Origin: Mobula hypostoma
Taxonomy: Eukaryota
Direction of reading: 5' to 3'
DNA: 64,000 nt
Assembly (NCBI RefSeq): GCF_963921235.1
Contig: NC_086107.1
Location: 107,510,001 to 107,574,000 of the forward strand
This document shows positions 1,813 to 58,869 of this stretch, piece by piece. Under the pieces are notes generated by a model. That model was not told where the DNA came from, did no database searches, and was given only the letters and a program-made list of their open reading frames with translations. A program made the position numbers and the translations under genes. Each line of letters starts with the position of its first letter. Positions within the stretch are counted from its first letter, which is position 1.

Positions 1813-1823
1813 TGTCCTTCTGA

Positions 1824-2072
1824 AGCGGAGGGAGGGAGGGAGGGAGAGAGAGGGAGGGGGAGAGAGAGGGAGAGGGAGAGGGAGAGGAAGAGGGAAGAAG
1901 AGGGAGGGGGAGAGAGGAAGAGGGAGAGGGAGAGGGAAAGAGGGAGGAAGAGGGAGAGGGAGAGAGAGAGAGAGGGAGAGAGAGAGGGGGAGAGAGGGGG
2001 GGAGAGAGAGGAGGAGAGAGAGGGAGAGAGAGAGAGAGAGAGAGAGAGGGAGAAAAGAAAAGGAAAAAAAAA
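1824..2072 (+). repeat. GA-rich polypurine low-complexity tract/microsatellite
   Basis: About 250 bp of almost pure G/A (GAGGGAGAGAGG...). It explains the spurious ER/SL-repeat ORFs at 1707-2209. Confidence 0.95.
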
Positions 2073-2379
2073 CAACACACACGTGGGGTGAAAAGGACCT
2101 GGTCCAACCAATAAAGAACAGTGCCCACAGGAGGAATCTTCTTGGGGGGGGCATGGAGAACCTTCAAGGCACTGGTACACGGTTCACTGTGACATCTCTG
2201 TAGCAACATGAATACCTGCAGCTTAGATTAGCCTGCGATGCAAGCAGATGCCCATGGGGTCTCTTCCTGCTTCTGTGAGTTGAAAGAAAAATCTGTTCTC
2301 AGACTGAGTGAGCACTCTAATACTGTGCTGAGCAGCAGACTGTAAAATATACTGTAGCGGAGGCTTTGATAGAGACCAG

Positions 2380-2665
2380 GGTTTGAGCCCGTCTCTCAGT
2401 CCTGTCAGTACTGAGTTTGCCCATTTTCCTTATGATGCATGGGTTTCCCGCTGGTACTCCAGTTTCCTCCCACATCCCAGAACATGCCAGTAGGTTAAGT
2501 GGCTGTAGTAGAAGGATCACCTGCAGGATAGAAGGATATCTGGGGAATCAGTGGGAAAGTAATGGGTGAGAGAGAATCAATGCAGGGAGTGGTTGGAATG
2601 GGACTGATGGGTATGATCTGAGAGCTAAGCATGGGCTTGAAGACTGAATGGCCCTTATGTATGCC
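2380..2665 (+). mobile_element. V-SINE/HE1-like tRNA-derived SINE copy
   Basis: Core GGGTTTCCCGCTGGTACTCCAGTTTCCTCCCACATCCCA resembles the V-SINE central domain. Related copies lie at ~3170-3365(-), 4530-4655(-), 8730-9020(+), 11010-11225(+), 12222-12445(+) and 30731-31008(+). Confidence 0.65.
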
Positions 2666-3630
2666 ATGGAGAAACATGAAGGGCAGCATCAGCTGGCAGG
2701 AGTAGTCCTGCAGAAACGAGAGGAGAAGGCAGCCCAAACGCACATCTGAGGCTCGGTTTGAGGCCTTAAGCCACACATCTCTGTGAGGCTAAAGGATGCA
2801 GTTCAAGTGTCAAGTAACATCTCACCAAGGGAACCAGTGCTAATAATTTTGTTAAGAGACACAGCACAATAACAGGCCCCTCCTGCACAATGAGCACTTA
2901 TATATTTTGTTAAACTTTAGAGATGCAGCACTGTAGCAGTTTGTTGCCTTCTGCACTCTGATTGATTTTTCATTGATCCTGTTATAGTAACGATTCTATA
3001 ACTTTGCTGAGTGTGCCCACAAGAAAATGAATTTCGGGGTTATGTATGATGACATAGATATACTTTGATAATAAATTTACTTTGAACTTTGGTATTCTTT
3101 TCCACAGATGCTGTCTGACCTGCTGAGTTCCTCCAGCATTTTGTGTGTGGCTTTGGTAACAAAGTAATGAACCCACACTGCCCAATTACACCCAGGTAAC
3201 CAATTATCCTTCTGTCTTTGGAATGTAGGAGGAAACCAGAGCACCCAGAGAAAATCCGCACAGTCACAAGGAGGATGTACAAACTCCTGACAGACAGTGG
3301 TGGGAATTGAACCTAGATTGCTGGCACTGTAATAGTGTTACACTCACCATTTGATATCATGCAGCCCCATTAGTTATTATTATGTTTCCAGATCACATAA
3401 AAAAACATATAAACAAGGGAATACAGTATGCTCTTACAATGTTATATAAAGCGCCCAAAGGAAACCCACACGGTCATGGGGAGAACGTACAAACTCCTTA
3501 CAGACAGCCACATCGCTGGTGCTGTAGTGGTGATATGCTTACTGCCACACTGCCATGCTGCTCAAAAAATCTGGCTATCCTGTGAGCAAATTAGAACAAT
3601 AATTTTTCAGACTTGTTGGATTACGGGAGA

Positions 3631-4356
3631 CTCACAATACACTGGAGGAACTCAGCAGGTCGGGCAGCATCCGTGAAAATGATCAGTCAACGTTTTGGGC
3701 CGCAACCTTTTGTCAGGACTGTAGGGGGAAGGGGCAGAGGCCGCTTCGTCGAGCACCTCTGCTCCGTCCGCCACAACAGACAAGATCTCCCGGTTGCCAC
3801 CCACTTCAACTCTGCTTCCCATTCCCATTCAGATATGTCCATACATGGCCTCCTCTACTGCCATGATGAGGCTAAACTCAGGTTGGAGGAGCAACACCTC
3901 ATATACCGTCTAGGTAGTCTCCAGCTCCTTGGTACGAACATAGAATTCTCCAACTTCCGGTAATTCCCTCCCCCTCCCTTCCCCTATCCCTATTTCACTC
4001 TGCCCCCTCCCCCAGCTGCCTATCACCTCCCTCATGGTTCTGCCTCCTTCTACTACCCATTGTGTTTTCCCTTATTCCTTCTTCACCTTTCCTGCCTAAC
4101 ACCTCCCTGCTTCCCCTCCCCCACCTTTTCATCTTTCTCCTTACTGGTTTTTCACCTGGAACCTACCAGCCTTCTCCTTGCCACCCTCCCCCCACCTTCT
4201 TTATAGGGCCACTGCCCCCTCCCTCTTCAGTCCTGACGAAGGGTTCCGGCCCGAAACATTGACTGGTCGTTTTCATGGATGCTGCCCAACCTGCTGAGTT
4301 CCTCCAGCGTGTTGTGAGTGTTGCTTTGAACCCAGCATCTACAGAGTATTTTGTCT
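3631..4356. mobile_element. Short Penelope-like element as a tail-out inverted pair (minus arm ~3631-3741, plus arm ~3741-4356)
   Basis: 15-bp TSD TTGGATTACGGGAGA at 3616-3630 and 4357-4371. GIY-YIG C-terminal residues RFVEHL..VATHFN..LEEQHLIYRLGSLQ in ORF 3613-3963. Hammerhead-like motifs at 3684-3721(-) and 4228-4265(+). Confidence 0.9.
4228..4265 (+). ncRNA. Minimal type-I hammerhead ribozyme motif (degenerate stem III/cleavage site)
   Basis: CAGTC-CTGACGA-AGG-GTTCCGG-CCC-GAAAC-ATT-GACTG: 5-bp stem I (CAGTC/GACTG), CUGANGA and GAAA core, short stem II. Confidence 0.65.
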
Positions 4357-6627: not shown

Positions 6628-7574
6628 CAGTATATTCCGATTAATTGGGACGTATCGGGATGAGTACATTTTGGCCCAATTAAGAGGCTGCTCCAATTAG
6701 TCAGAGTTTCATGCAAATAATTAAAAAGGTCTAGAATGAACAACTTCCATTTAACTGAGTAACAAATTAGGTACGTATTTAATTGAAATACAGAACAAAT
6801 TAGAACACTACCAATACTACTACAGTCCTATAAAACCGTGTATTAGCTCCTAATAGTTATCGATGGAGGAAATCATCTAGTGTACGTTGATGTGTTCTTT
6901 TGATTGACTGTAACGAACAAAAACTGCACAGACACCTAATGCAGATGATGGATTACCTTTATACAGTAAAGGCTTTTGGTGATTGCAAGATCCAAATCTT
7001 TCATTTTCAATTTAACATTCAAGATGATTGTCGACACATTCAAATTCTTCATAGTCCTAACTTGCTGAAGTAGTGAAATCATTTAATTTTCACTCCCTGG
7101 ACGAGAAGGGTCTTGGCCCGAAACATCACCTGTTTACTATTTTCCATTGATGCTGTCTGGCCTGCTGAATTCCTCCAGCATTTTGTGCATGTTGCTTCAT
7201 TTTCACTCCTGGCCATTTCTGGCATCTCCAAGCCTGAATGCTTGAAACTGCAGTGAGCAAAATAGTTCTGAATTGTCTTTCTGCTTCTTTCTCATCAACT
7301 ATAAGTGACAAAAATCACTGTTTTTTAAACATAAATGCATGCAACTGATACTATTTAAAAGCTGTTTGCTTTGAGTATGGCGTAGTGCCTAAAGGCCACA
7401 CAGGAGCATGCAACTGATGGTAGTTTGAAACTATTCAGCAACAGTTTCCTGTCCTAATTAAGTAGCATAGTGTCCCAAATAAATGAAGGGAATCCCAGCT
7501 CTTTACTTGATTAGTTTTTGTTCTTTAGGAGTTATCCCAAATAAGCGGCTGCCCCAATTAACTAGAATACACTG
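6628..7574. mobile_element. pogo/Tigger-like non-autonomous DNA transposon (MITE)
   Basis: TA-flanked, with imperfect 24-bp TIRs CAGTATATTCCGATTAATTGGGAC / GCCCCAATTAACTAGAATACACTG. A second, reversed copy lies at ~32305-34256. Confidence 0.75.
7101..7198 (+). mobile_element. Penelope 3'-end fragment (partial hammerhead plus downstream sequence) inserted in the MITE
   Basis: GAAGGGTCTTGGCCCGAAACATC...GATGCTGTCTGGCCTGCTGAATTCCTCCAGCATTTTGTG, with near-TSD ATTTTCACTCC(C)TGG at 7086-7100 and 7199-7212. Confidence 0.75.
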
Positions 7575-17240: not shown

Positions 17241-18200
17241 GGTGGTAGATGATAGGTGAAACCAGGAGAGGGTGAGGGGATGAAGTAAAGAGCTGGTAAG
17301 TTGATTGGTGGAAGAGATAAAGGGCTGGAGAAGGGGGAATCTGATGGGAGAGCACAAAAGACCATTGACGAAAGGGAAGGGGAAGGAGCACCAGAGGGAG
17401 GTGATGGGCAGGCAAGGAGATGTGAGAGGTAAACAAGAATGGCGAATGGTGAGGGGGCGGGCAGTAATTACCCGAAGTTCAAGAAATTGAAGTTCATGCC
17501 ATCACATCAGCTTGGAGGCTACTCAGATGGAATATGAGGTGTTGCTCCTCCAGCCAGAGTGTGACCTCATTGAGGCAGTAGAGGAGGACATGTTGGAATG
17601 GGAATGGGAAGAAGAATTGGGTTGTCACTGGGAAATCCAGGCTTTTATGGCAGATGGATTGAAGGTGCTCGACGAAGCAATGCCCTAATCTACGTTGGAT
17701 CTCACCGATGTACAGGAGGCCACTCTAGGAGAATCGGATACAGTAGATGACCCCAACAGACTTGCCGGTGAAGTGTCGCCTCAGCTGGAAGGACTGTTTG
17801 GGGCCCTGAATGGTAGTGAGGGAGGAGGTATAGCACTTATTCTCCCTTGCAAGGAAGTGCCCATAGCGAGATCAGTGGGGAGGGGTGAGTGGACAAGGGA
17901 GTTGCGTAGCCTACAATCCATGCGGAAAGTGGTAAGTCGGGGGGGGGTGGGATGTGCTTGATGGTGGGATCCTGTTGGAGATGATGGAAGTTACAGAGAA
18001 TTATATGCTGGATGCAGAAGCTTGTGAAGTAGTAGGTCAGGACAAGAGGAAATGTCAACAGTTTCACTTTCTGCAGATCTGAGAAAGTGTCTTTAACCTG
18101 GAAGTTTGACTTTGTTTCTCTGTTCACAAATGCTGCCTGACTTGTTGAGTGATTCTGTGTCGACTTCAGAATACCAGCATCTGCAATTTTTAGATTTTCG
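17241..18200 (-). mobile_element. Older Penelope-like fragment (minus, ~17241-18045) followed by a degenerate plus-strand tail (~18080-18200)
   Basis: Homologous to 39700-40470 (ORF 17837-18238 has IQHIILCNFHHLQQDPTIKHIP). The plus-strand tail ends CCAGCATCTGCAATTTTT. Confidence 0.7.
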
Positions 18201-22719: not shown

Positions 22720-24400
22720 CCATAAGGCTATTAAGACATGGGAGCAAAATTAGGCTATTCCACACATTGAGTCTGCTCTGGCATTCCCTCATGGCTGATT
22801 TATTATCCCTCTCAGTCCCATTCTCCTGCCTTCTCCCCGTAACCTTTGGTGCTCTGACTAATCAAAGGACTCGCCATCTCATGTTCTGTGATATTTATTG
22901 TTTATTTAGTTATTTTTATTATTTCTCTCTTTTTGCATTTGCACAGTTTGTTGTCTTCTGCTCGTTGTTTGAACGCCCAGGTTGGTGCGGTCTTCCATTG
23001 ATTTTTATCATGGTTATTATTCTATAATGGATTTATTGAGTATGCCCACAAGGAAATGGTTCTAGATCGTGACATAAATGTACTTCAATAATAAATTTTG
23101 TTTTGAACTTAACAGCCTGCACTTCAATTGTTTTGGCCTCCAAGGTTATCTGTGCCAGTGAATTCCACAGATTCACTACTCTAGCTAAATAAATTCCTCC
23201 TCATCCTCTGCTCTAAATGAATGTCCCTCTATTCTGAGGCTGTGTTCTCTTGTCTTGGACTCACACGCTTATCGGAAACATCTGCCCGACATCCTCTGTA
23301 TCCATTCTTTTCATTCCCAGAGTCATTCTCGTAAACTTCCTCTGGACCCTCTCCAATACCAGCACATCTTTTCTTAGATAAGGGGCCCAAAACTGCTCTC
23401 AGCACTCCAAGTATGGTCTGACCAATGCCTTACAAAACCTCAGCATTACATCTTAGCTTTTGTGTTCTAATCTTCTCAAAATGAATGCTAACATTTGCCT
23501 TCCTTATCACTGGCTCAACCTGCAAGTTAGTTTTTTGGGAATCCTGCACAAGAACTCCCAAGTCCCTTTGCACTTCTGATTTTTGGATTTTCTTCCCGTT
23601 TAGATAAGTGTCTATGTCTATTTCTTCTACCAAAGTGCATGACCACACTCTTCCCTACACTATATCGATCTGCTTTTTCTATTGTACATACTATTTATTA
23701 TGCAACACACATAAAAGTTGCTGGTGAACGCAGCAGGCCAGGCAGCATTTCTAGGAAGAGGTGCAGTCGACGTTTCAGGTCGAAAACATACTATAATTTA
23801 CATATTATAACATATTATAATTTACTATAAGTTGCACATTGCACATTAGGCAGAGACATAACGTAAAGATTTTTACTCATGTATATCAAGGATGTAATTA
23901 ATAAAGTCAATTCAACTCAACTCAATTCTTTGCCCATTCTCCCAATCTGTCCAGGTTCTTCTGCGGACTCCCTGCTTCCTCAGTACTACCTGCCCCTCTA
24001 CCTACCTTCACATTGTCTGCATACCTGGCCACAAAACCGTCAATTTTGTCATCCGTATCATTGAAATTCAACATGAAGAGAAGCGGTCCCAACACCAACC
24101 TTGTGGAATGCCGCTAATCACCAGCAGCCAAACAGTAAAGCCCTCTTTATTCCCATTCTTTGCCTGCTGACAGTCAGCCAATCTTATATCCATGTAGTGC
24201 CATGAGCTCTTATCTTGTTAATCAGCCTCGTGTGCGGCACCTTGTCAAAGGCATTCTGACTTTGACACCATCAAAGTCAGAATGCACCATCCACTGACTC
24301 TCCTTTGTCTATCTTGCATTTTATTTCCTCAAAGAATTCCAACAGATTTGTCAGGCATGGTTTTTTAAGGGAAACCATGCTGATTTTGGCCTTATTTTCT
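22720..24400 (-). mobile_element. Decayed CR1-type LINE (minus) with nested Rex1-tail and Penelope-end fragments
   Basis: ORF 23430-23648 has YLNGKKIQKSEVQRDLGVLVQDS. The CR1 tail is at ~22720-22780, a Rex1 tail at ~22866-23110, and a Penelope end with partial hammerhead at ~23701-23785. Confidence 0.7.
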
Positions 24401-32900: not shown

Positions 32901-33012
32901 ATACATAATTTGTTACTCAGTTTGTCTTTTTTTTGGTACCTTTTAAATTATTTCCATGGAACTTGGACTAATTGGGGCAGCCGCTTAATTGGGCCAATAT
33001 GTTCTGGTCCTG

Positions 33013-33556
33013 TGGATTACGGGAGGAATGGAGACAGGCTTGCCCCGATCAACATCAGTGGGACTGCAGTTGTGAGGGTAGGTAGTTTCAAGTTTCTCAG
33101 TATGCACATCACCAAAGATCTCACCTGGACTGTACACACCAGCTGTGTGGCAAAGAAAGCACAGCAGTGTCTCTTCCACCTCAGGTGGCTGAAGACGTTC
33201 AGCGTGAGCCCAAAATCCTCAAGACCTTCTACACGGGCACCATTGAGAACATCCTGAATGACTGTTTCACCATCTGGTATGGGAACTGTGCCAACCTTGA
33301 TTGCTCGCTGGGCACTGCAGAGAATGGTACAGCAGCCCAGTGCATCTGTGGATGTGAACCGCTCCATTGAGGACATTTGTAGCAGCAGGTGTGTAAAGAA
33401 GGCCTGGAAGATCATTGGGGACACCAGTCACCCCAACCATAAACTGTTTCAGGTGCTTCCATCTGGCAAATGGTACTGCAGCATTAAAGCCAGGAACAAC
33501 AGGCTACGGGACAGCTTCTTTCTACAAGCCATTAGACTTATAAATTCACATGTCTG
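33013..33556 (+). mobile_element. Rex1/Babar LINE 3' fragment
   Basis: FKFLSMHITKDLTWT..KKAQQCLFHLR and HPNHKLFQVLPSGK..RLRDSFF. Its tail resumes after 34149. Confidence 0.8.
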
Positions 33557-37650: not shown

Positions 37651-39522
37651 TTGCTCCTGTATCCAGTTAAAACTTCCAGCACATTGGAAAGTGATGCGTA
37701 TATTATGCTTAATCATTAAAAATAATCAAGTTGAGGATCTAGTCTGAATGTTTTAAGACCTGTGAAGGAAGATGAGGAAAAACAACACTGATGCAGAAAG
37801 TCTATATGAATTTTTAAATCAATTATAAGTACTAGGTATTTATATAATTTATTTCACTATTTTGTTATTATAGATAATGTTAGTGTTGTTATGTGTGATC
37901 CCACACACAGCGGTATGACCAGAATATTTGGAGTAATGTTAATTGAATTAAGTATCAGCAGCACACAGGATATATCCCCTAGTCTTCAAAATAATGCCGC
38001 GGAATCTTTTGCCTTTATTTGAGGAGGATTATTATAAAATTTGAAAGGTTGTACCTTGGACAGCCCAATGCTCTGGTAGTGGTGCTCAGAGTGTCGGCCT
38101 AGATTTTGTGCTCTAGCCTCTTAAAGTTTAGAGTTCAAATCCTATTTATGGCTTGTGGATGAAAATAAACTGAAGGGTGTTTTGAAGGTGTTCAGATGAG
38201 TTTGAGGTAAAGAATTGTACCTTTAAGGGAATAATAATCCAGTCATCTATTTTTGTTGCATTTTCTCCCATATTTCATTAGTTCCCTTTTATACAGAGCT
38301 GCTTAGAGTTTGTGTGGGCACTAACCCAATTACTTAATGTTGTGACTGTAATAGCAGGTTCATATGCAAAATCCTCTCCTGTAAACAACATTCCAGTGAT
38401 ATTGTTGGAGTAATGAACTTCACTACCAGATCTCCAAGAGTCTGCTTTATATAAACACAAGGGATTCTGCAGATGCTGGAAATCCAGAGCAACAGGCGTT
38501 TTGATTGTGTGTTTTTATATGTTGTTGAAGTCTGTTTGTCACCCTTTTGACTTCCCTTTGTGTTTAGGTAGATAAACAATTTCAGATAAGTGTAATTCTG
38601 ATCCCAGGGTGCAATGTTTTGTCTGCAGCTGATGTGTTATTGACATCCCTTTTTAACTATAATTTATCAGATTTTCACACTTTCCCTTTTAATGTTCTTT
38701 CCTTTTTTTTGAGAAGGGGTTGACTTTTTGAGTGCCTACTTCACATGCAGGTTGTTTTTGATCCTCCACCCAAGTGGCAATTTCTGTGAGAAGCATTCAT
38801 TTTTATAAATAATCTTTCATGACTGCAGGGCATTGCAAACTATTTCATAGACAATTAAGTACTTTTGAAGTGTGGTCTTTGATGATAATGAGCAGATGCT
38901 GATGACAGTGGTTGAGGAATAAATATTTGGCAAGTGCACTGGGGAACTTCACATGGCCGCTTTTGATTTGTATTAGATGATCTTCCATGTCCTTGTGAAA
39001 GGGAAGGCGGCATCTTAGTTTTTCCTCATGAAGGACAGCAACTCTGAAAACAGTGCTGTCCAGGTACTGCATGGAATGTGTGTTACCAGCAACAAGACTA
39101 ATCATGGGAGATTCCGTCAATGCTTTGGCCATTCCACAACCACTGTTATTGTTGTGGCTGAAAAAACAGCTGTGCTTGAACCAGTGTACATTCTTAAGTG
39201 GAAATACCGGCCATATTTCTCTGTCTGTGTGTCTCTGTCTGATATCTAACATTTAATCGCAGTCTTCCACTCCCAAGATTTCTTCTTGAAAGAACATAAC
39301 CGTAGGCAGGAGTGGATAGAAATGGAAAGGGAAACTTGTTCAATCACTGCATTTACTTACGGAACATGTTTCAGTTTTACAGTGTACATTTTAAACAAAG
39401 ATACCTCAGGGAATTGGTGTAGTTCCAGAATTTATATTGAAACTGGGTTATGTGATACAAATAACATACATCAAAGTTGCTGGTGAACGCAGCAGGCCAG
39501 GCAGCATCTATAGGAAGAGGCG

Positions 39523-39560
39523 CAGTCGACGTTTCAGGCCGAGACCCTTCGTCAGGACTA
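39523..39560 (-). ncRNA. Minimal type-I hammerhead ribozyme motif (intact core)
   Basis: Reverse complement reads TAGTC-CTGACGA-AGG-GTCTCGG-CCT-GAAAC-GTC-GACTG. Confidence 0.8.
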
Positions 39561-39855
39561 ACTGAAGGAAGAGTGAGTAAGGGATTTGAAAGCTGGAGGG
39601 GGAGGGGGAGATGCAAAATGATAGGAGAAGACAGGAGGGGGAGGGATGGAGCCGAGAGCTGGACAGGTGATAGGCAGAAGGGGATACGAGAGGATCATGG
39701 GACAGGAGGTCCGGGAAGAAAGACGGGGGGGGGGGAGTGACCCAGAGGATGGGCAAGAGGTATATTCAGAGGGACAGAGGGAGAAAAAGGAGAGTGAGAG
39801 AAAGAATGTGTGCATAAAAAAGAGTAACAGATGGGGTACGAGGGGGAGGTGGGGC

Positions 39856-41525
39856 CTAGCGGAAGTTAGAGAAGTCAATGTTCATGCCATCAGGTTGGAG
39901 GCTACCCATACGGAATATAAGGTGTTGTTCCTCCAACCTGAGTGTGGCTTCATCTTTACAGTAGAGGAGGCCGTGGATAGACATGTCAGAATGGGAATGG
40001 GATGTGGAATTAAAATGTGTGGCCACTGGGAGATCCTGTTTTCTCTGGCGGACAGAGCGTAGATGTTCAGCAAAGCGGTCTCCCAGTCTGCGTCGGGTCT
40101 CACCAATATATAAAAGGCCACATCGGGAGCACCGGACGCAGTATATCACCCCAGTTGACTCACAGGTGAAGTGATGCCTCACCTGGAAGGACTGTTTGGG
40201 GCCCTGAATGGTGGTAAGGGAGGAAGTGTAAGGGCATGTGTAGCACTTGTTCCGCTTACACGGATAAGTGCCAGGAGGGAGATCAGTGGGGAGGGATGGG
40301 GGGGACGAATGGACAAGGGAGTTGTGTAGGGAGCGATCCCTGCGGAATGCAGAGAGGGGGGGGAGGGAAAGATATGCTTAGTGGTGGGATCCCGTTGGAG
40401 GTGGCGGAAGTTACGGAGAATAATATGTTGGACCCGGAGGCTGGTGGGGTGGTAGGTGAGGACCAGGGGAACCCTATTCCTAATGGGGTGGTGGGAGGAT
40501 GGAGTGAGAGCAGATGTACGTGAAATGGGGGAGATGCGTTTAAGAGCAGAGTTGATAGTGGAGGAAGGGAAGCCCCTTTCTTTAAAAAATGAAGACATCT
40601 CCCTCGTCCTAGAATGAAAAGCCTCATCCTGAGAGCAGATGCGGCGGAGACGGAGGAATTGCGAGAAGGGGATGGCGTTTTTGCAAGAGACAGGGTGAGA
40701 AGAGGAATAGTCCAGATAGCTGTGAGAGTCAGTAGGCTTATAGTAGACATCAGTGGATAAACTGTCTCCAGAGACAGAGACAGAAAGATCTAGAAAGGGG
40801 AGGGAGGTGTCGGAAATGGACCAGGTAAACTTGAGGGCAGGGTGAAAGTTGGAGGCAAAGTTAATAAAGTCAACGAGTTCTGCATGCGTGCAGGAAGCAG
40901 CGCCAATGCAGTTGTCGATGTAGCGAAGGAAAAGTGGGGGACAGATACCAGAATAGGCACGGAACATAGATTGTTCCACAAACCCAACAAAAAGGCAGGC
41001 ATAGCTAGGACCCATACGGGTGCCCATAGCTACACCTTTAGTTTGGAGGAAATGGGAGGAGCAAAAGGAGAAATTATTAAGAGTAAGGACTAATTCTGCT
41101 AAACGGAGCAGAGTGGTGGTAGAGGGGAACTGATTAGGTCTGGAATCCAAAAAGAAGCGTAGAGCTTTGAGACCTTCCTGATGGGGGATGGAAGTATATA
41201 GGGACTGGACATCCATGGTGAAAATAAAGCGGTGGGGGCCAGGGAACTTAAAATCATCGAAAAGTTTAAGAGCGTGAGAAGTGTCACGAACATAGGTCGG
41301 AAGGGATTGAACAAGGGGTGATAAAACAGTGTCGAGGTATGCAGAAACGAGTTCGGTGGGGCAGGAGCAAGCTGAGACAATAGGTCGGCCAGGACAGGCA
41401 GGTTTGTGGATCTTGGGTAGGAGGTAGAAACGGGAAGTGCGGGGTGTGGGAACTATAAGGTTGGTAGCAGTGGAAGGGAGATCCCCTGAGCGGATAAAGT
41501 CGTTGATAGTGTGGGAGACAATGGC
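39856..41525 (-). pseudogene. Penelope-type reverse transcriptase + GIY-YIG endonuclease, 5'-truncated and frameshifted
   Basis: In-frame upstream of ORF 40179-41216 is FYLLPKIHK..PGRPIVS, followed by MDVQSLYTSIP, QTKGVAMGTRMGPSYA, RYIDN (catalytic D changed to N), LPFLDL and VYYKPTD. A -1 frameshift occurs in a C8 run at ~40356-40363, then the PCKRNKCYTC linker and VIYCVRCSRCGLLYIGET..RFAEH..HF..LEEQHLI endonuclease. Confidence 0.92.
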
Positions 41526-42584
41526 TTTTCATTCTAGGACGAGGGAGATGTCTTCATTTTTTAAAGAAAGGGGCTTCCCTTCCTCCACTATCAACTCTGC
41601 TCTTAAACGCATCTCCCCCATTTCACGTACATCTGCTCTCACTCCATCCTCCCACCACCCCATTAGGAATAGGGTTCCCCTGGTCCTCACCTACCACCCC
41701 ACCAGCCTCCGGGTCCAACATATTATTCTCCGTAACTTCCGCCACCTCCAACGGGATCCCACCACTAAGCATATCTTTCCCTCCCCCCCCTCTCTGCATT
41801 CCGCAGGGATCGCTCCCTACACAACTCCCTTGTCCATTCGTCCCCCCCATCCCTCCCCACTGATCTCCCTCCTGGCACTTATCCGTGTAAGCGGAACAAG
41901 TGCTACACATGCCCTTACACTTCCTCCCTTACCACCATTCAGGGCCCCAAACAGTCCTTCCAGGTGAGGCATCACTTCACCTGTGAGTCGACTGGGGTGA
42001 TATACTGCGTCCGGTGCTCCCGATTTGGCCTTTTATATATTGGTGAGACCCGACGCAGACTGGGAGACCGCTTTGCTGAACATCTACGCTCTGTCCGCCA
42101 GAGAAAGCAGGATCTCCCAGTGGCCACACATTTTAATTCCACATCCCATTCCCGTTCTGACATGTCTATCCACGGCCTCCTCTACTGTAAAGATGAAGCC
42201 ACACTCAGGTTGGAGGAACAACACCTTATATTCCGTATGGGTAGCCTCCAACCTGATGGCATGAACATTGACTTCTCTAACTTCCGCTAGGCCCCACCTC
42301 CCCCTCGTACCCCATCTGTTACTCTTTTTTATGCACACATTCTTTCTCTCACTCTCCTTTTTCTCCCTCTGTCCCTCTGAATATACCTCTTGCCCATCCT
42401 CTGGGTCACTCCCCCCCCCCGTCTTTCTTCCCGGACCTCCTGTCCCATGATCCTCTCGTATCCCCTTCTGCCTATCACCTGTCCAGCTCTCGGCTCCATC
42501 CCTCCCCCTCCTGTCTTCTCCTATCATTTTGCATCTCCCCCTCCCCCTCCAGCTTTCAAATCCCTTACTCACTCTTCCTTCAGT

Positions 42585-42622
42585 TAGTCCTGACGAAGGG
42601 TCTCGGCCTGAAACGTCGACTG
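42585..42622 (+). ncRNA. Minimal type-I hammerhead ribozyme motif (intact core; predicted cut after C42617)
   Basis: Stem I AGTC/GACT, core CTGACGA, stem II AGG/CCT with a 7-nt loop, GAAA, loop-less palindromic stem III (ACGT) and a GUC cleavage triplet. Confidence 0.8.
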
Positions 42623-43860
42623 TACCTCTTCCTACAGATGCTGCCTGGCCTGCTGCGTTCACCAGCAACTTTGATGTATGTTGCTTGAATTTCCAGCATC
42701 TGCAGAATTCCTGTTGTTATGTGATACAAATGTTATGAGGAACTTAAGCAATTAATTTTTCAGCCGAAGTGTTTATGGAATGGATAACTAAGTGAAATAA
42801 GCAAGCAGGCAGTTTGGTGCAGTTTGTTGAGTTTGAATACAATGTTCTGCTCAGTGATGTTGTTTTGAGTAAGGACAGTGCACAGGACCAAAGTGTTTTT
42901 TTCCTGAATTGCATGATTCTTTAAATTACTTTAAATTACTTTGGGGTAAGCCTGAATGCTTTGATGTTTCTAATTGTCCAAGTTTGCTGTCTGAAGAGAC
43001 ACTTCATCTGTGCAAAAACATTTACCAAACTTATGAAAGATTATAAATGGGGAAAACATCTTGGGAAAGTTTTTTTTACATAAAATGCACTTTCTCATTA
43101 TGATGGAAGAGTTTTAAACAATAATCTAACAGGGTAGGATATATGGAAACAGATTGTTGCTAGTGGTAGAGGGATTTAACCTGATGTGAGATAATGAACA
43201 GAGCCAAAAAATAGCATTTGAAATTGGAATTCTCTTTCAAGATTAGTAGGGAAGGAAAAATAATATGAGAGTTTTAATTTAGATTAAATAGATAGATGTT
43301 AGAAAAGGAAACCAGTTGGTAAATATGATATGGGCCATAAAGATACTAAGTGTAAACATAAGCTTGAATGGGCTGAATTACTGGTCTCTGATTTCACATT
43401 TCTGTTCAGCCTTTTAAATCTGAATTTTTGAATCCTGAATCAGAATTTCAATCCTAGCCAACTAGCTATAAAGTGCAAGCTTGATGATTTTGGTTATTAC
43501 GGTTAGAAATAATGGGGAGCAGTTTGTTTTTTTATGTACTATTAACTAATTGTAAAGCATTAACTTAACAGTAATTTGACATTTAGATGTTGAAGCCAAA
43601 TAAATAAAAATGGGATTTTCAGAGTGACAGCTTTGTGACATCTGTCTTCTATGTGAGTTGCACATTGGATTGTTATGTTTTCTGTAGTCTCTTTCTGACA
43701 GAGAGGTACATTGGAAAATTGCAGTTTTTGCATTAGTTGTGCGTATCCGGCATAATTTGTGTGGATAAAATGTAGAGATAGTTATAATCTGGAGAATCAG
43801 ACTGGAGGATCCTCTGTATCTGATCTTTCATGACGTGCCTATTTGTGATCTGGTTCCTGA

Positions 43861-49768: not shown

Positions 49769-51513
49769 CCGTGCTGTGCAAAAGTATTAGGTACATATAT
49801 ACTACTAGGCTGCGTAAGACTTTTGCACAGAACTATAGTAATTTTATGCATTGTACTGTACTGTTGCCGCAAAAAAAAACAAATTTCATGAAATATGTGA
49901 GTGATGATAAACCTGATTCTGATATGGGTCTCTATTGTGGACTGAGAGTGGGAAGGGGGCAGGGAGAGGGAAATCATGATTGGGAAAAGGAGGAAGGGAG
50001 TGAGGTGGAAGCAGGAAGCATCATAGAGACATTCTGTAATGACCAATAAATCAATTTTTTGTCATCAAATTACCTTGATTGGTGTCTCAGGGCTGGATGG
50101 GTCTGCACCCGCACTACCTCCTCTGTCCCTGGCACTTCTCTGTCATTTGTCCCACACCCTTCCCAAGTTGCTCCACCCTCACCACTTCCAACATTCTTTA
50201 CTCCTGCCAGATTTACAAATTTGCTGTCTGCTCTAAACTGACAAATACAGTACTGTGCAAAAGTTTCAGGCACTCCAGCTGTATAGAGAGGTGTTAGAAA
50301 GTTTGTGAACTCTGTAGAATTTTCTCTATTTTTGCATAAATGTGACCTAAAATGTGATCAGATCTTCACAAGTTTACAAATGGAGGAAACTCAGTACTTT
50401 TGCTACTCTCCCTAGGAGTGGGCTTCCTGCAAAGACTGCACCAAGAGCACAATGTGCAATGCTGAAGGAGATGAAAAAGAACCCAAGGGTAACAGCAAAA
50501 GACCTGCAGAAATCTTTAGAACTTGTTAAAGTCTCTGTTCATGTGTCCATTATAAGAAAAGCACCGAACAGGAATGGTGTTCATGGAAGGACACCACAGA
50601 GGAATCCACTGTTCTCCAATAAAAAAACATCGTTGCATGTCTCAAGTTTGCAAAAGACCACCTGGATATTCTACAGGGCTTCTGGAACAATGTTCTGTGG
50701 ACAGATGAGATGAAAGTTGAACTTTTTGGCAGAAATGCACATTGCTATCTTTGGAGGAAAAAGGGCACTGCACACCAACACCAAAACCTCATCCCAGCTG
50801 TGAAGCATGGTGGAAGGAGCATCATGGTTTGGGGCTGCTTTGATGCCTCAGGGACTGGACAGCTTGCAATCGTTGAGAGAACAAAGAATTCAAAATTGTA
50901 TCAAGACATTTTACTGGAGAATGTCAGGGTAGCTGTCTGTTACTTGAAGCTTAATAGAAGTTGGATAATGCAACAAGACAATGATCTGAAAGACAAGAGT
51001 AAATCAACAACAGAATGGTTTAAAAAGAAAATTCCTGTTTTGGAATGGCCAAGTCAAAGTCCTGACTTTATTCCTATAGCAATGTTGTGGAAGGACCTAA
51101 GGGAAGCAGTTCATGCAAGGAAGCTCATCAACATCCCAGAGTTGAAGCAGTTTTGTAAGGACGAATGGCCTAAAATTCTTCCAAGCTGATGTGCAGGACT
51201 GATCAACAGTTAACAGAAATGTTTGGTTGAAATTATTGCTATATAAGGGGATCACACCAGTTACTGAAAGCAAAGGTTCACATACTTTTTCCAACAAATA
51301 CATATAGTATTAAATCACTTTTCTCAAAAAATAAACAAGTATAATATTTTTATGTTATTTATTGAATTGAGTTCTCTTAATCTAGTTTTAGGACTTGCAT
51401 GAAGATCTGATTACATTTTAGGTCGTATTTATGCAGAAATAGAGAAAAATCTACAGAGTTAACTGACTTTCTAGCGCCACTGTATCGGTGCCTAAGACTT
51501 TTGCACAGTACTG
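49769..51513. mobile_element. Tc1-type mini-MITEs (49769-49835 and 50248-51513); the second hosts the Tc1 transposon
   Basis: TA-flanked TIR CAGTACTGTGCAAAAGT..AGGCAC at 50248 and its reverse complement ending at 51513. The same TIR pair occurs in a 67-bp hairpin at 49769-49835. Confidence 0.7.
50284..51482 (+). mobile_element. Tc1 transposon with decayed transposase; left TIR partly deleted
   Basis: About 85 bp of TIR match (50290-50370 vs 51400-51482). ORFs 50354-50713 and 50710-51189 give LPRSG.P.K, KNPRVTAKDL, WTDE.KVELFG, VKHGGRSIMVWGCF, QQDND and WPSQSPDFIPIA (catalytic E lost). Confidence 0.9.
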
Positions 51514-53660: not shown

Positions 53661-55555
53661 GTAAGGATGTCAGGTTTGGAGTTTTTGGATTATGTTTGTA
53701 ATATAATTTGATGGCCTTTGATTGCGATTGTTTTGACTGTTCTATGAAGGGGATTCATGGCCTGCTGGCAACACATAAGGTGCTGGGGGAACTCAGTAGG
53801 TCAAACAGCACCTGGAGGCAAATGGACAGTTGACGTTTTTAGTCGAGACTTTACCTGGACTATCCAGTGCCTAGGTGAAATGTTGATTGTTCAGGGTTTA
53901 CTGGAGATTCAGTGTCACTCCACCCCGACACTTTGAATTTAATGGTGACTTGTTTTCTGCTATCCCGGATTGAGCTTAACCTTCTTGTTCCTTTTCGCGT
54001 TCTTGGTATCTTGGCTTTTTTAAAAAATCAGCACTTCAAGGACTGGGAAAATGAAAGGCGTGTCACTCTTTGGTTAGGTTGTGATTATGTGGGCAGTGGG
54101 AAAATCATCTCTCTTGTGCTTCTTGATCTCATCACTCAAGATTCGGTGTCATGCAACTCTGCCACTTTGATCTGCTAAGTTCCTCCAGGGTGTTGTTCCC
54201 GATTCCAGCACACAGTCTCTTGTGTTTCAGTCTGATTTAGATGCCTTAAGCCTGATTCAATCTGGAAGTGCTATTATGGACCTCTGCACTCTGAGACTAT
54301 AAGAGAGGAAATTATCCAAATTCCAAAAGTGGTAATTGTCCTCCAACTGTTGATTGAAGCTATTGTGTCTGCAGATGTTATGATGTGCAAGAAACAGAAT
54401 AGTCTGTCAGTGCAGTGTCCAGGCTTGTTTTTTTAAACCAAGAACTGCAATAGCTTATAAACAATTAACCAAGTGTAGAGTGAGCAACACACATCAAAGT
54501 TGCTGGTGAACGCAGCAGGCCAGGCAGCATCTGTAGGAAGAGGTGCAGTCGACGTTTCAGGCCGAGACCCTTCGATCCAGTTTTAGTTGCTCAGTTTGAA
54601 TATAGGATTCCCAAATGAAAGTTGTACCAAGCATTTGTGTTTTTTAATCCATCAAACATTAATGGAAAATGTTGAAGTCCTCTTGGTTACACTGAATATC
54701 TGACATACCATATAAATTGGTGCATAAGACTTCAACCTCACTTTCTGTGGTTCTTCAGCTTGGGACTTCTGCTCAATCTTTTCACTGCACTTCGTTAAGA
54801 ACCAATCTGGTATAGGTTGGAAGCCCTTTATGCAGCTTTAAAAGCTCATCTATTGCAGGTGTGGAAAAAATAGAGACTAAATAATGATCATGTTACCATT
54901 TAAAACATAGTTTTAGTAGATAGTCAGCATGCTTGAACTATTTTTATGTCCAGGAAGTGATGCACGGCATTAATGTCGAAACTACTTTTAGAAACCTGCT
55001 CTTCTATACAAAGAATAACCACTCTGGGTATTTTACTTTGAGTAACTTTTAAGTAAGTTGAAATCTCTTAAGTCAATTGTCTTCTATCTGTTACAATATC
55101 ATAGTAGGGGTGAGTTAGATAATAAAGTTACAATTGGGTTTGCATACTGAGATTTTTTAGTGCATTTCCTTCTTCTTGGTTCAATTCTGTAAATTAATCT
55201 CATACAATCTACCACTCAGTCAGAATGTTTTCATTTAGCTATTACCACAGGACAAGAACATAAAATGTTCCAATGCAACATCTGAGGATTAATTATAATA
55301 GCCAAATGCTGATCTTTATCAGGATGTGTGATTGAGGCTCAGTATCTGTTCAAGTGGTCAGGTAAGTATTCAGAATGTTGCAAAGGAAGGAAAGTAAGGT
55401 GTTTTCCAGGCAACACACACAAAATGCTGGGTCAGGCAGCATCTGTGGAGGGAACACCAAAAGGCTGAATGGCATACCTCAGCTTCTATTTCTTTTTATA
55501 TTCTCAACAAAACTAGTATCTGCCTTACTGCAAAGTAGAGCAGTGTATAAAATAT

Positions 55556-56125
55556 AAACATGAGGAAGTCTGCAGATGCTAGAAATCCAAAGCAACACAC
55601 ACAAAATGCTAGAGGAAATCAGCAGATCAAGCAACATCTATGGAAATGAATAAACAGTTGCCGTTTCGGGCTGAGACCCTTCTTCAACACGAGAAGGAAG
55701 GGGGAAGATGCAGGAATAAAAAGGTGGGGGAAGGGGAAGGAGGCTAGCTAGAAGGTGATAGTGAAGTCAGATGGTTCGGAAAGGTTAAGGGCTGGAGAGG
55801 AAGGAATCTGATAGGAGAGGAGAGTGGACCATAGGAGTAAGGGAAGGAGGAGGTGGCCTGGGGGAAGTGATAGGCAGATGGAAAGAGATGAAAGGTCAGA
55901 GTGGGGAATGGGTAGGGGAGATTTTTTTTTTACCTGAAGGAGAAATCAATATACATGCCATCAGATTGGAAGCTACCAGATGGAATATAAGATATTGCTC
56001 CTCTACCCTGAGGATGGCTTCATCTTGGCACAAAAGGAAGGCATGGACCAATATATTGGAATGGGCATCGGAATTAAAATTTTTGCCAACAGGAAGTTCC
56101 GCTTGTAGCGATGGCGCAAAGGTGC
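55556..56125 (-). mobile_element. Penelope 3' fragment (endonuclease end, degenerate hammerhead, full tail)
   Basis: ORF 55896-56141 has CQDEAILRVEEQYLIFHL. GTTTCGGGCTGAGACCCTTCTTCA lies at ~55663-55686. Confidence 0.8.
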
Positions 56126-57730: not shown

Positions 57731-58484
57731 CACGGGGAAATCTGCAGATGCTGGAATTTCAAGCAACACACTTAAAAGTTGCTGGTGAATGCAGCAGACC
57801 AGGCAGCATCTCTAGGAAGAGGTACAGTCGACGTTTCGGGCCGAGACCCTTCGTCAGGACTAACTGAAAGAAGAGATAGTAAGAGATTTGAAAGTTGGAG
57901 GGGGAGGGGGAGATCCAAAATGATAGGAGAAGACAGGAGGCCGCCCACTTTAATTCCATGTCCCATTCCCATTCTGATATGTCTATCCACGGCCTCCTCT
58001 ACTGCCAAGATGAAGCCACACTCAGGTTGGAGGAACAACACCTTATATTCCATCTGGGTAGCCTCCAACCTGATGGCATGAACATAACTTTCATTAATGC
58101 CCCACCTCCCCTTCGTACCCCATCCGTTATTTATTTATATTATTATATATATAATTATTATTTTTTTCTCTCTTTTTCTCCCTCTGTCCCTCTCACTATA
58201 CTCCTTGCCCATCCTCCGGGATTCCCCCCTCCCCTTTCTTTCTCCCTAGGCCTCCCGTCCCATGATCCTTTCATATCCCTTTTACCAATCAACTTCCCAG
58301 CTCTTGGCTTCATCCCTCCCCCTCCTGTCTTCTCCTATCATTTTGGATCTCCCCTCCCCCTCCCACTTTCAAATCTCTTACTATCTCTTCTTTCAGTTAG
58401 TCCTGACGAATGGTCTTGGTCCAAAACGTCGACTGTACCTCTTCCTATAGATGTTGCCTGGCCTGCTGCGTTCACCAGCAACTT
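57731..58484. mobile_element. Short Penelope-like element as a tail-out inverted pair (minus arm 57731-~57940, plus arm ~57941-58484)
   Basis: 14-bp TSD TAAAGAAATGGCAA at 57717-57730 and 58485-58498. Endonuclease C-terminus HFN..HGLLYCQDEATLRLEEQHLIFHLGSLQPDGMN. Hammerheads at 57825-57862(-, intact) and 58398-58435(+, GAAA mutated). Confidence 0.92.
57825..57862 (-). ncRNA. Minimal type-I hammerhead ribozyme motif
   Basis: Reverse complement reads TAGTC-CTGACGA-AGG-GTCTCGG-CCC-GAAAC-GTC-GACTG. Confidence 0.75.
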
Positions 58485-58758
58485 TAAAGAAATGGCAAGG
58501 TTGCTGCCCGATGCGCCACAAAGCACGGAAAGGAACAACAATTTGTCTGTAGGAGCAACTGAGCTTTAGCAAAACCTGTGCTGTCATTTGAATTTTCTCA
58601 TTGATACCATGTAGTCAAGCACTTGGTATAATTTCTGCCACTGTTTTAACTAGAAGAAGCTAAATTAACTCTGGGATGTTTCTTGTCTGGAAACTGAGCT
58701 TTTTGCTGGATAAATATTAGACCATGGGGAAAACTTAAGGAACATTTCAACATTTTAG

Positions 58759-58869
58759 TACACAAACAAGAGAAAATATGCAGATGCTGGAAATCTGAGC
58801 AACACACAAAACGCTGGAGGAACTCAGTGGGCCTGGCCTCAGTGGCCTCCAGCATTTTGTGTGTGTTTC
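58759..58869. mobile_element. Minimal inverted Penelope insertion (~110 bp)
   Basis: TSD TCAACATTTTAG at 58747-58758 and 58870-58881. A minus arm with full tail faces a plus arm CCTCCAGCATTTTGTGTGTGTT that has no tail. Confidence 0.7.

What the first reader, a model, noticed from the sequence alone, without database searches (positions are those of the whole stretch)
39463..42715. Penelope retroelement inserted as a 1.16-kb tail-out palindrome with a hammerhead ribozyme motif in each arm
Seen: one 16-bp TSD (GTTATGTGATACAAAT) encloses two opposed copies. Arms 39463-40623 and 41523-42682 differ at only ~8 positions by eye and surround a ~900-bp RT spacer. The junction has a short GGC overlap, and the right arm has a 33-nt extra tail (42683-42715). 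Known: Penelope-like elements can form inverted pseudo-LTR structures and carry minimal hammerheads. Inference: this was one recent insertion event in which both target-DNA ends primed reverse transcription, one at the RNA 3' end and one ~33 nt inside it.
Basis: partly seen in the sequence, partly recalled or inferred. Interest (0 to 1): 0.85.

Follow-up and report, generated by a model that had tools for sequence, protein, structure and literature searches.

The report
Penelope-like retroelement inserted as inverted pair
This is a real single insertion of a Penelope-like retrotransposon as two opposed, truncated copies with one 33-base tail, a layout already described for this class of elements and very common in this genome.

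Summary
A 16-bp direct repeat (39447-39462 and 42716-42731) flanks a 3,253-bp insert. The insert is a 2,060-nt minus-strand copy and a 1,193-nt plus-strand copy joined head to head at a GGC microhomology. The arms differ at 7 bases and one 1-nt indel. Only the right arm carries the 33-nt tail.

[quoted passage not shown] Its CX4CX2C linker fits Neptune/Nematis rather than Penelope/Poseidon. Each arm has a minimal hammerhead motif (0 hits in 100 shuffles), but Rfam finds none.

Contigs of a sister species join 39446 directly to 42716, an empty site with one copy of the 16-mer. So this was one insertion event.

The layout is routine here. The genome holds 70,122 exact 3'-end anchors. Fourteen of 100 sampled ends pair tail-out, and 19 of 20 unselected pairs carry exactly one tail.

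Published work already describes inverted copies, a tail at one end, hammerheads, extension of both target strands and two RT start sites. The verdict is a correct reading of a known architecture, with low novelty.

The parts
39447..39462 (.). Left copy of the target-site duplication GTTATGTGATACAAAT
   Evidence: (D13). The sister-species contig has only one copy.
39463..41522 (-). 5'-truncated PLE copy of 2,060 nt. Its 3' end faces outward (left) and stops at the internal start site ...GATGTATGTT, without the tail.
   Evidence: 98.9% identity to L042 positions 1547-3618 of the 3,646-nt reference stretch.
39463..40623 (-). Left arm of the inverted repeat (1,161 nt)
   Evidence: 7 mismatches and 1 indel against the right arm.
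39524..39559 (-). Minimal type-I hammerhead motif: helix I AGUC/GACU, core CUGACGA, bulged A, helix II, then GAAACGUC with a palindromic ACGU
   Evidence: descriptor; 0 hits in 100 shuffles. Not found by Rfam.
39856..40377 (-). Reading frame with the CX4CX2C linker and the GIY-YIG/CCHH endonuclease. It is out of frame with RT at a C8 run.
   Evidence: GIY-YIG E=6.7e-5, 23.5 bits against a cutoff of 22.6.
40179..41528 (-). RT reading frame (449 aa, open at its 5' end), including the 899-nt spacer 40624-41522. Motif C reads YIDN here, a private change.
   Evidence: RVT_1 E=3.4e-4, below the cutoff; 19 of 21 copies read GACGAC.
41523..41525 (.). GGC microhomology at the head-to-head junction
   Evidence: the two matches overlap by 3 nt.
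41523..42715 (+). 5'-truncated PLE copy of 1,193 nt, with its 3' end facing outward (right) and carrying the tail
41769..42290 (+). Linker plus GIY-YIG endonuclease frame of the right copy
   Evidence: E=2.3e-4, 21.9 bits, just under the cutoff.
42586..42621 (+). Minimal hammerhead motif of the right arm
   Evidence: Identical in 36 of 40 family copies examined.
42683..42715 (+). 33-nt tail, the stretch between the two RT start sites. It encodes codons 2-12 of the element's ORF.
   Evidence: frame read in L041.
42716..42731 (.). Right copy of the target-site duplication

Best explanation
This is one retrotransposition event of a young, very abundant endonuclease-bearing Penelope-like element with a Neptune/Nematis-type linker.

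Proposed mechanism:
1. The element's GIY-YIG nuclease cut both strands of the target 13-16 bp apart.
2. Each exposed 3' end then primed reverse transcription of element RNA. The right-hand end started at the outer site, giving a cDNA with the 33-nt tail. The left-hand end started at the inner site 33 nt upstream, giving a tail-less cDNA.
3. Both cDNAs stopped short of the 5' end, after at least 1,193 and 2,060 nt.
4. They were joined head to head at a 3-nt GGC microhomology, by a template jump or by end joining.

The product is dead on arrival. Both copies lack the N-terminal third of the ORF.

Shown: the anatomy, the single-event origin, the recurrence of the layout, and the one-tail rule. 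Inferred: priming on both strands, and the way the junction was made.
For: Anatomy:
- The TSD, arms, junction and tail are as described.
- PLE identity rests on RVT_1 plus GIY-YIG in one 860-aa frame in copy L042, a DKG motif and a roughly 930-codon frame in L041, and CCHH and CX4CX2C read.

Single event:
- Contigs of organism B join window 39446 directly to 42716. They are X5 record 9 (2,889 nt), X6 record 16 and X7 record 23 (3,190 nt each), all from one sample.
- The flanks of A and B differ by about 2% (22 letters in 1,132, plus gaps).
- The arms differ by 7 of 1,160 positions (0.6%). This is consistent with insertion after the species split.

Recurrence:
- 9 of the 30 best loci for the right arm are head-to-head pairs. 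All 9 have 11-16-bp TSDs, and 7 of the 9 junctions overlap by 1-5 nt; the others show a 9-nt overlap, a 7-nt filler and a complex junction.
- With a query that excludes the tail, 23 of 40 ends have the tail and 17 do not. Six pairs lie among them, and all 6 have exactly one tail.
- Genome-wide there are 70,122 exact 3'-end anchors, of which 32,786 have the tail start.
- Among the first 100 anchors on contig C1, 14 (-,+) neighbour pairs lie within 5 kb, against 2 (+,-) pairs. Thirteen of the 14 have exactly one tail. The binomial P is 9e-4 at the observed tail frequency of 0.48.

Same source for both arms:
- An A/G marker at the end of the arm agrees in 11 of 11 pairs where both arms reach it, including two G/G pairs.

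Literature:
- The Anolis PLE protein cleaves and extends both strands. RT starts at two adjacent internal sites, and the tail is the sequence between them (PMC11167929).
Against: - No read or contig of organism A that I could see bridges the inner junction at 41522/41523. The only organism-A run laid comes from the same sample as the probable assembly source.
- The in-vitro paper reports no difference in start site between the two strands. It therefore does not by itself predict the strict one-tail rule.
- Arm-to-arm divergence in the 9 sequenced pairs is 0.34-1.04%, only modestly below the between-locus mean of 1.04%. Arm identity thus gives weak evidence for a shared template.
- Some one-arm variants recur in other copies, for example position 1102 (a CpG) in 7 other copies. 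Different templates are not excluded.
- Three of the six pairs in the unselected census were read only at their 121-nt ends.
- The 14 pairs on C1 are defined by spacing and orientation only. Their TSDs were not checked.
Confidence: 0.78

Rival explanations
1. Self-priming (fold-back). One cDNA snaps back on itself at a microhomology and copies itself, making the second arm. This was proposed for head-to-head PLE repeats in rotifers.
For: - It is proposed in PMC3846280 (passages read), based on palindromes at the inverted junctions.
- Two of the 9 sequenced pairs here have almost no spacer: L035 about 13 nt and L032 about 27 nt.
- Most junctions show short microhomology.
Against: - A copy of the first cDNA would end where that cDNA began, so both arms should have the same end. 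Instead 19 of 20 unselected pairs have one tail and one tail-less end.
- In the window the spacer belongs to the tail-less copy. A fold-back of that cDNA could not produce the 33-nt tail on the other arm. The same holds for L036 and L038.
- A fold-back that ran into the primer would give an inverted flank, not the direct TSD seen in 9 of 9 pairs.
Confidence: 0.08
2. The copies come from double priming, but the tail asymmetry arises afterwards. The element's endonuclease resolves the intermediate by cutting at the tail boundary on one side, as suggested in the PLE literature.
For: [quoted passage not shown]
- PMC11167929 recounts that the D. virilis endonuclease needed the tail sequence for recognition and cleavage.
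Against: - Solo insertions also end at either site. Of the 28 ends outside pairs, 17 have the tail and 11 do not. This fits two start sites better than a pair-specific resolution step.
- The in-vitro start sites map exactly to the two genomic ends.
- Tail-less ends vary over about 6 nt and often share 2-6 nt with the target, for example L034 and L038. This looks like priming rather than cleavage.
Confidence: 0.1
3. Assembly artefact: a fold-back chimera or a mis-join of two repeat copies.
For: - PLE inverted and tandem structures are known to cause assembly problems (PMC8557442).
- No listed organism-A contig bridges 41522/41523.
Against: - The arms differ at 8 positions and have different ends. 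A fold-back chimera would give identical arms.
- An organism-A contig runs from the left flank 24 nt into the left arm (38900-39486). Another runs from the tail into the right flank (42695-43300).
- The insert is bounded by an exact TSD whose single copy marks the empty site in the sister species.
- The same layout with TSDs occurs at 8 other sequenced loci.
Confidence: 0.02
4. Two independent insertions, the second landing next to the 5' end of the first.
For: The family is extremely abundant (70,122 anchors), so chance neighbours do occur. One C1 pair with two tails and differing A/G markers looks like such a case.
Against: - One TSD encloses both copies, and no second TSD lies at the inner junction.
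- The sister species lacks both copies precisely.
- The (-,+) orientation is enriched 14 to 2 over (+,-).
Confidence: 0.02

Closest known systems
Canonical PLE insertions with an inverted 5'-truncated copy and a one-sided tail, e.g. Pen2a_Av of Adineta vaga (PMC3846280) and the general scheme in Craig et al. 2021 (PMC8557442, Fig. 2 legend)
   Same: - There is a head-to-head inverted copy next to the main copy.
- One variable-length TSD surrounds the whole unit.
- A 30-40-bp tail sits on only one end (31 bp in Pen2a_Av, 33 bp here).
- A hammerhead motif lies in the repeat.
- The repeat end contains the first codons of the ORF, and the tail extends that coding stretch.
   Different: - Here neither copy is full length and there is no direct pLTR, so this is the minimal two-arm form.
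- The arms are long (1.16 kb), with a 0.9-kb unique RT spacer.
- The family is far more abundant than the rotifer elements.
Poseidon PAc of Anolis carolinensis, in-vitro integration (Frangieh et al. 2024, PMC11167929)
   Same: - Both target strands are cut and extended.
- Reverse transcription starts at two adjacent internal sites, and the tail is the stretch between them.
- The start sites lie at the beginning of the ORF.
- AT-rich targets are preferred.
   Different: - PAc belongs to Penelope/Poseidon. This element has the Neptune/Nematis-type CX4CX2C linker.
- In PAc the start sites lie 111-118 nt into the ORF. Here they lie at about +5 and about +38 from the likely ATG.
- The paper reports no strand difference in start site. 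The genomic pairs here almost always combine one of each.
Twin priming of human L1 (recalled from memory; no paper was read here)
   Same: The second target 3' end primes on element RNA, giving an inverted segment inside one TSD, with microhomology at the inner junction.
   Different: Twin priming inverts a different, adjacent part of one RNA, with little or no duplication. Here both arms copy the same 1,160 nt, so two passes over that stretch are needed, on two RNAs or on one RNA read twice.

Membership tests
Endonuclease-bearing Penelope-like elements (EN+ PLE) | [quoted passage not shown] | tested here: met
   The L042 860-aa frame has RVT_1 (25.9 bits, under the 29.6 cutoff) followed by GIY-YIG (19.9 bits, under the 22.6 cutoff). 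The window's left copy scores 23.5 bits for GIY-YIG, above the cutoff. Scores are weak, but order and spacing are as expected. The nearest Atlas clusters are animal RVT_1/GIY-YIG proteins (a lead only).
Endonuclease-bearing Penelope-like elements (EN+ PLE) | CCHH zinc-finger motif with two cysteines between GIY and YIG | tested here: met
   Read by eye in the translation (...VIYCVRCSRCGLLYIGE...AEH...H...). The criterion comes from PMC8557442.
Endonuclease-bearing Penelope-like elements (EN+ PLE) | PLE-type RT (DKG motif; sister group of telomerase RT) | tested here: inconclusive
   The DKG motif is present (KPADKGGAVVVW). No phylogeny was made. phmmer against PDB chains found nothing at E<=1.
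Endonuclease-bearing Penelope-like elements (EN+ PLE) | Partial-tandem (pseudo-LTR) and inverted insertion forms, with frequent 5' truncation | tested here: met
   L041 has a 540-nt upstream partial copy, about 90 nt, then the body. Inverted pairs make up 9 of 30 loci. Nearly all copies are 5'-truncated.
Endonuclease-bearing Penelope-like elements (EN+ PLE) | 30-40-bp tail present at only one end of the unit | tested here: met
   The 33-nt tail is on the right arm only. Exactly one tail is seen in 6 of 6 and 13 of 14 unselected pairs.
Endonuclease-bearing Penelope-like elements (EN+ PLE) | Minimal hammerhead ribozyme in the repeat | tested here: inconclusive
   The core, the bulged nucleotide after A9 and the palindromic 15.1-16.1 ACGU are present. 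The 10.1-11.1 pair is G-U in the young family and G-C in the older copy at 57826-57861. Rfam finds no match, and the fold is no better than shuffles. Cleavage is not testable here.
Endonuclease-bearing Penelope-like elements (EN+ PLE) | Target-site duplication of variable length | tested here: met
   TSDs of 11-16 bp in 9 of 9 sequenced pairs.
   The linker reads C-KRNK-C-YT-C upstream of GIY-YIG in both arms. PMC8557442 assigns this motif to Neptune and Nematis and says it is absent in Penelope/Poseidon. An RT phylogeny was not made, so the clade remains tentative.
L1-type twin priming product | Inverted and direct segments derive from adjacent, non-overlapping parts of one RNA | tested here: not met
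   Both arms cover the same 1,160 nt.

The most novel reading that the evidence does not exclude
The near-absolute rule of one tailed arm and one tail-less arm may mean that both target 3' ends prime on the same RNA molecule, or on one dimeric RNP. If so, the two adjacent start sites exclude each other within an event. The upstream-primed cDNA would be displaced by the downstream-primed one, and the two would then be joined.

That would be a concerted double-ended TPRT specific to PLEs. The published in-vitro work saw both strands extended but reported no site coupling. This genome has tens of thousands of young copies and empty sites in a sister species, so it would be a natural data set to test the idea.
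Probability: 0.3. Interest if true: 0.55.

Novelty: new member of a known kind. Interest (0 to 1): 0.25.

Why it matters
The locus itself is an ordinary dead-on-arrival transposon insertion, and its layout is the one textbooks give for Penelope-like elements. Its value is as a clean, dated example. It has an exact TSD, an empty site in a sister species, two start sites 33 nt apart and a microhomology junction.

The family behind it is very large and young: at least 70,000 3' ends, with about one 3' end in four lying in such a pair. That makes the still unresolved integration mechanism of these elements countable in vivo. In particular, one can ask whether the two start sites are coupled within an event.

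Tried and rejected
- **Rfam scans:** two runs gave no hammerhead family at E<=1 or E<=10, only chance-level hits (PVX_3, UnaL2, PrrB_RsmZ, MIR444).
- **Monomer RNA fold of the motif:** z = 0.01, no support. This is expected for a dimer-dependent minimal hammerhead.
- **phmmer of the 860-aa ORF against PDB chains:** nothing found.
- **Paralogous empty site:** the left flank 39063-39462 is unique in the genome, so none exists.
- **Larger census:** I then read only the 121-nt ends. As a result the inner structure of three pairs (C58, C2, C5) was not seen.
- **Reads:** no listed organism-A piece bridges 41522/41523. All organism-A runs come from the sample that may be the assembly source, so there is no independent individual.
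- **Arm identity as a test of a shared template:** it discriminates too weakly, 0.34-1.04% within pairs against a 1.04% mean between loci.
- **The YIDN in motif C of the left copy:** it looked at first like a family-wide dead RT. It is a private CpG change, since 19 of 21 copies read DD.
- **My first guess that the unit's 5' start follows the tail directly:** wrong. About 90 nt intervene.
- **Literature search for 'twin priming' with PLEs:** two unrelated papers, listing only.
- **Earlier findings of this scan:** none.
- **Tandem Repeats Finder on 36-46 kb:** nothing.
Full report
**Observation**

- The 16-mer GTTATGTGATACAAAT stands at 39447-39462 and 42716-42731, and abuts a 3,253-bp insert on both sides (D13).
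- Inside, 39463-40623 is the reverse complement of 41523-42682. The two differ by 7 mismatches and one 1-nt indel in a G-run.
- The 899 nt between the arms (40624-41522) continue the left arm without a break. They carry an RT reading frame on the minus strand.
- The insert is therefore two 5'-truncated copies of one element set head to head with their 3' ends outward. One is a 2,060-nt minus copy, the other a 1,193-nt plus copy.
- GGC at 41523-41525 fits either copy.
- Only the plus copy has the extra 33 nt at 42683-42715.
- Other copies end ...CCTGTTGTT(T). The first GTT of the right-hand 16-mer may therefore be element-templated, which makes the duplication 13-16 bp with a 3-nt target/RNA microhomology.

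**What the element is**

- Both arms encode a GIY-YIG nuclease. The left copy scores E=6.7e-5 and 23.5 bits, above Pfam's cutoff. The right copy scores 21.9 bits, just below it.
- The spacer gives a weak RVT_1 match (E=3.4e-4).
- In a longer copy (L042), RT and GIY-YIG lie in one 860-aa frame.
- In L041 the frame is open for about 930 codons and contains the PLE-typical DKG motif.
- The two cysteines between GIY and YIG (the CCHH motif) and a CX4CX2C motif in the linker are visible in the translations.
- According to Craig et al. 2021 (PMC8557442; passages read), CCHH is universal to canonical PLE nucleases. The CX2-5CxxC linker marks Neptune and Nematis and is absent from Penelope/Poseidon.
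- So this is a Penelope-like element in the class sense, probably not of the Penelope/Poseidon clade. No RT phylogeny was made.
- phmmer against PDB chains found nothing. The ESM Atlas neighbours are animal RVT_1/GIY-YIG clusters (a lead only).

**Hammerhead motif**

I wrote a descriptor from the features listed by Cervera and de la Peña 2014 (PMC4209133; passages read). The features are:
- helix I;
- the CUGANGA core;
- an optional bulge after A9;
- helix II;
- GAAA;
- a complementary 15.2/16.2 pair, U16.1 and H17;
- the helix I complement.

Results:
- The descriptor hits 42586-42621 (+), 39524-39559 (-) and an older copy at 57826-57861 (-). It has no other hit in the window and none in 100 dinucleotide shuffles.
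- The motif is identical in 36 of 40 family copies.
- The bulged A and the palindromic ACGU are as published.
- The 10.1-11.1 pair is G-U in the young family and G-C in the older copy.
- Rfam reports no hammerhead, and the monomer fold is unremarkable.
- The motif is thus present in each arm, but activity is untested.

**One event**

- Contigs of a run set labelled as another organism join window position 39446 directly to 42716. They are organism B, runs X5-X7, all one sample.
- The joining contigs are X5 record 9 (2,889 nt), X6 record 16 and X7 record 23 (3,190 nt each) (table 8).
- The flanks of A and B differ by about 2% (22 letters in 1,132, plus gaps). The two arms differ by 0.6%. The insertion is thus younger than the species split, but not brand new.
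- In organism A one contig runs from the left flank 24 nt into the left arm. Another runs from within the tail into the right flank.
- That run comes from the sample that may be the source of the assembly, and no listed piece bridges the inner junction. Independent read support for the full palindrome is therefore still missing.
- An assembly fold-back is nevertheless unlikely. The arms differ at 8 positions and end differently, and the same layout recurs elsewhere.

**The family**

- The 23-nt anchor just before the inner end occurs 70,122 times in the 3.48-Gb assembly. The reversed control occurs 0 times.
- 32,786 of these continue into the tail.
- The best 40 matches to the right arm are 98-100% identical. 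Sampled copies differ from each other by 1.04% on average.
- Longer copies show a unit of about 3.5 kb. In L041 a 540-nt upstream partial copy (a pseudo-LTR) with tail is followed by about 90 nt and then the body.
- The ORF frame opens right after a stop codon at the inner end. The A-variant carried by both window arms has an ATG there. The tail then encodes codons 2-12, MLLEFPASAEFLL by analogy with the L041 frame (read by eye).
- Arkhipova et al. 2013 describe the same relation: the pLTR holds the first 12 aa, and 22 aa with the tail (PMC3846280).
- Several copies read on past the tail (GTTTGCGTTTAAA...). Both end points are therefore internal to a longer RNA.

**How common the layout is**

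- Of the 30 best loci for the right arm, 9 (including the window) are head-to-head pairs.
- All 9 have TSDs of 11-16 bp. Seven junctions overlap by 1-5 nt; the others show a 9-nt overlap, a 7-nt filler and a complex junction. Arm-length differences range from 13 to 1,035 nt.
- That sample was selected for a tail, so I repeated the search with 300 nt that exclude it. I read all 40 ends.
- In that second sample 23 ends have the tail and 17 do not. Six pairs lie among them, and all six have exactly one tail and a matching TSD. Three of the six were seen only at their ends.
- Among the first 100 anchors on contig C1 there are 14 (-,+) neighbour pairs within 5 kb. There are 2 (+,-), 5 (-,-) and 3 (+,+) pairs. 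Thirteen of the 14 have exactly one tail, P = 9e-4 given a tail frequency of 0.48.
- The exception carries different A/G markers in its two ends and may be two insertions.
- The window itself holds a second, older pair at 57736-58485, with one tail and an 11-13-bp TSD.

**Mechanism**

The geometry is what results if both 3' ends of a staggered double cut prime reverse transcription:
- the bottom strand gives the plus copy on the right;
- the top strand gives the minus copy on the left;
- each copy is attached to its own copy of the TSD.

Frangieh et al. 2024 (PMC11167929; main text read) showed for an Anolis PLE that:
- the protein cleaves and extends both strands;
- RT starts at two adjacent internal sites;
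- the genomic tail is the stretch between those sites.

A simple fold-back of one cDNA was proposed in 2013 for rotifer elements. It does not fit here, for three reasons:
- In the window the spacer belongs to the tail-less copy, which cannot template a tail.
- Fold-back predicts equal ends.
- Fold-back predicts an inverted flank rather than a direct one.

Several points stay open:
- whether the two cDNAs come from one RNA or from two;
- whether the junction is a template jump or host end joining;
- why the two sites are almost always combined one of each.

The agreement of the A/G marker in 11 of 11 pairs points to a common source. Arm divergence is too close to the family background to prove it.

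**Comparison and verdict**

The following features are all in print:
- inverted 5'-truncated copies;
- one-sided 30-40-bp tails;
- hammerheads in the repeats;
- variable TSDs;
- ORF starts inside the repeat;
- extension of both target strands.

I therefore file this as a new member of a known kind.
- the clade is probably Neptune/Nematis, not Penelope/Poseidon;
- both RT start sites are internal to a longer RNA;
- the insertion is only relatively recent;
- the hammerhead is a motif only, with activity untested.

The part that might repay further work is quantitative. The one-tail rule and the sheer number of young, datable copies in this genome could be used to test whether PLE integration is a concerted two-ended reaction.

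Supplementary figures of the cited papers were not read. Fig. S1 and S2 of PMC11167929 may bear on start-site coupling.

Noticed in passing
window 57736-58485: A second, older tail-out inverted PLE pair (84-92% identity to the young family). The minus arm 57736-57940 ends with a tail. The plus arm 57939-58485 ends tail-less. The TSD is AAAGAAATGGCA(A), 11-13 bp. Its hammerhead motif (57826-57861, minus) has the canonical G10.1-C11.1 pair.
   Followed up: partly
window 38454-38494 (-), plus 3737-3976, 4229-4345, 7105-7204, 17474-18051, 23702-23783, 54483-54574, 55557-56104 and 58765-58837: About ten further old PLE fragments lie in the window, mostly 3' ends. They include an isolated tail-like piece of about 45 nt, 1 kb upstream of the insert.
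   Followed up: no
whole assembly G000: The 23-nt 3'-end anchor occurs 70,122 times (35,153 plus and 34,969 minus; reversed control 0), and 32,786 of these have the tail start. Contigs of the sister species lay on the element at similarly huge summed depth. The family was therefore expanding in both lineages.
   Followed up: partly
L041:4681-7500; window 42676-42715: The element's ORF opens immediately after a stop codon at the inner RT start site. The A-variant has an ATG there, and the 33-nt tail encodes codons 2-12. The G-variant (GTG) would have to start 27 codons later. Only tandem (pLTR plus body) copies can therefore hold a complete ORF.
   Followed up: partly
window 40911-40916 (-) and the C-runs near 40360 and 41783: The left copy has a private YIDD to YIDN change in RT motif C; 19 of 21 copies read GACGAC. 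Both arms share a C8 run that puts the nuclease out of frame with RT. Eleven of 16 matched copies also have C8, while L042 has one continuous frame. Homopolymer length may be an assembly error.
   Followed up: partly
L037, L056, L062, L063; loose ends at window 42712 and 42718: Some copies continue past the tail with GTTTGCG(TTTAAA...), the start of the roughly 90-nt stretch that precedes the body in tandem copies. Reverse transcription therefore sometimes starts even further downstream.
   Followed up: no
L042:5246-5662 and L041: A 197-nt tandem duplication lies in the 5' (N-terminal) region of the long copy L042. The L041 match is split at the same place.
   Followed up: no
window 50351-51189 (+); window 32901-33257 (+): There is a Tc1/mariner transposase remnant (HTH_Tnp_Tc3_2 E=8.7e-7; DDE_3 E=7.2e-8) and a weak ALKBH8_N-like match (E=2.4e-4). 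The neighbourhood looks like repeat-rich non-coding DNA.
   Followed up: no
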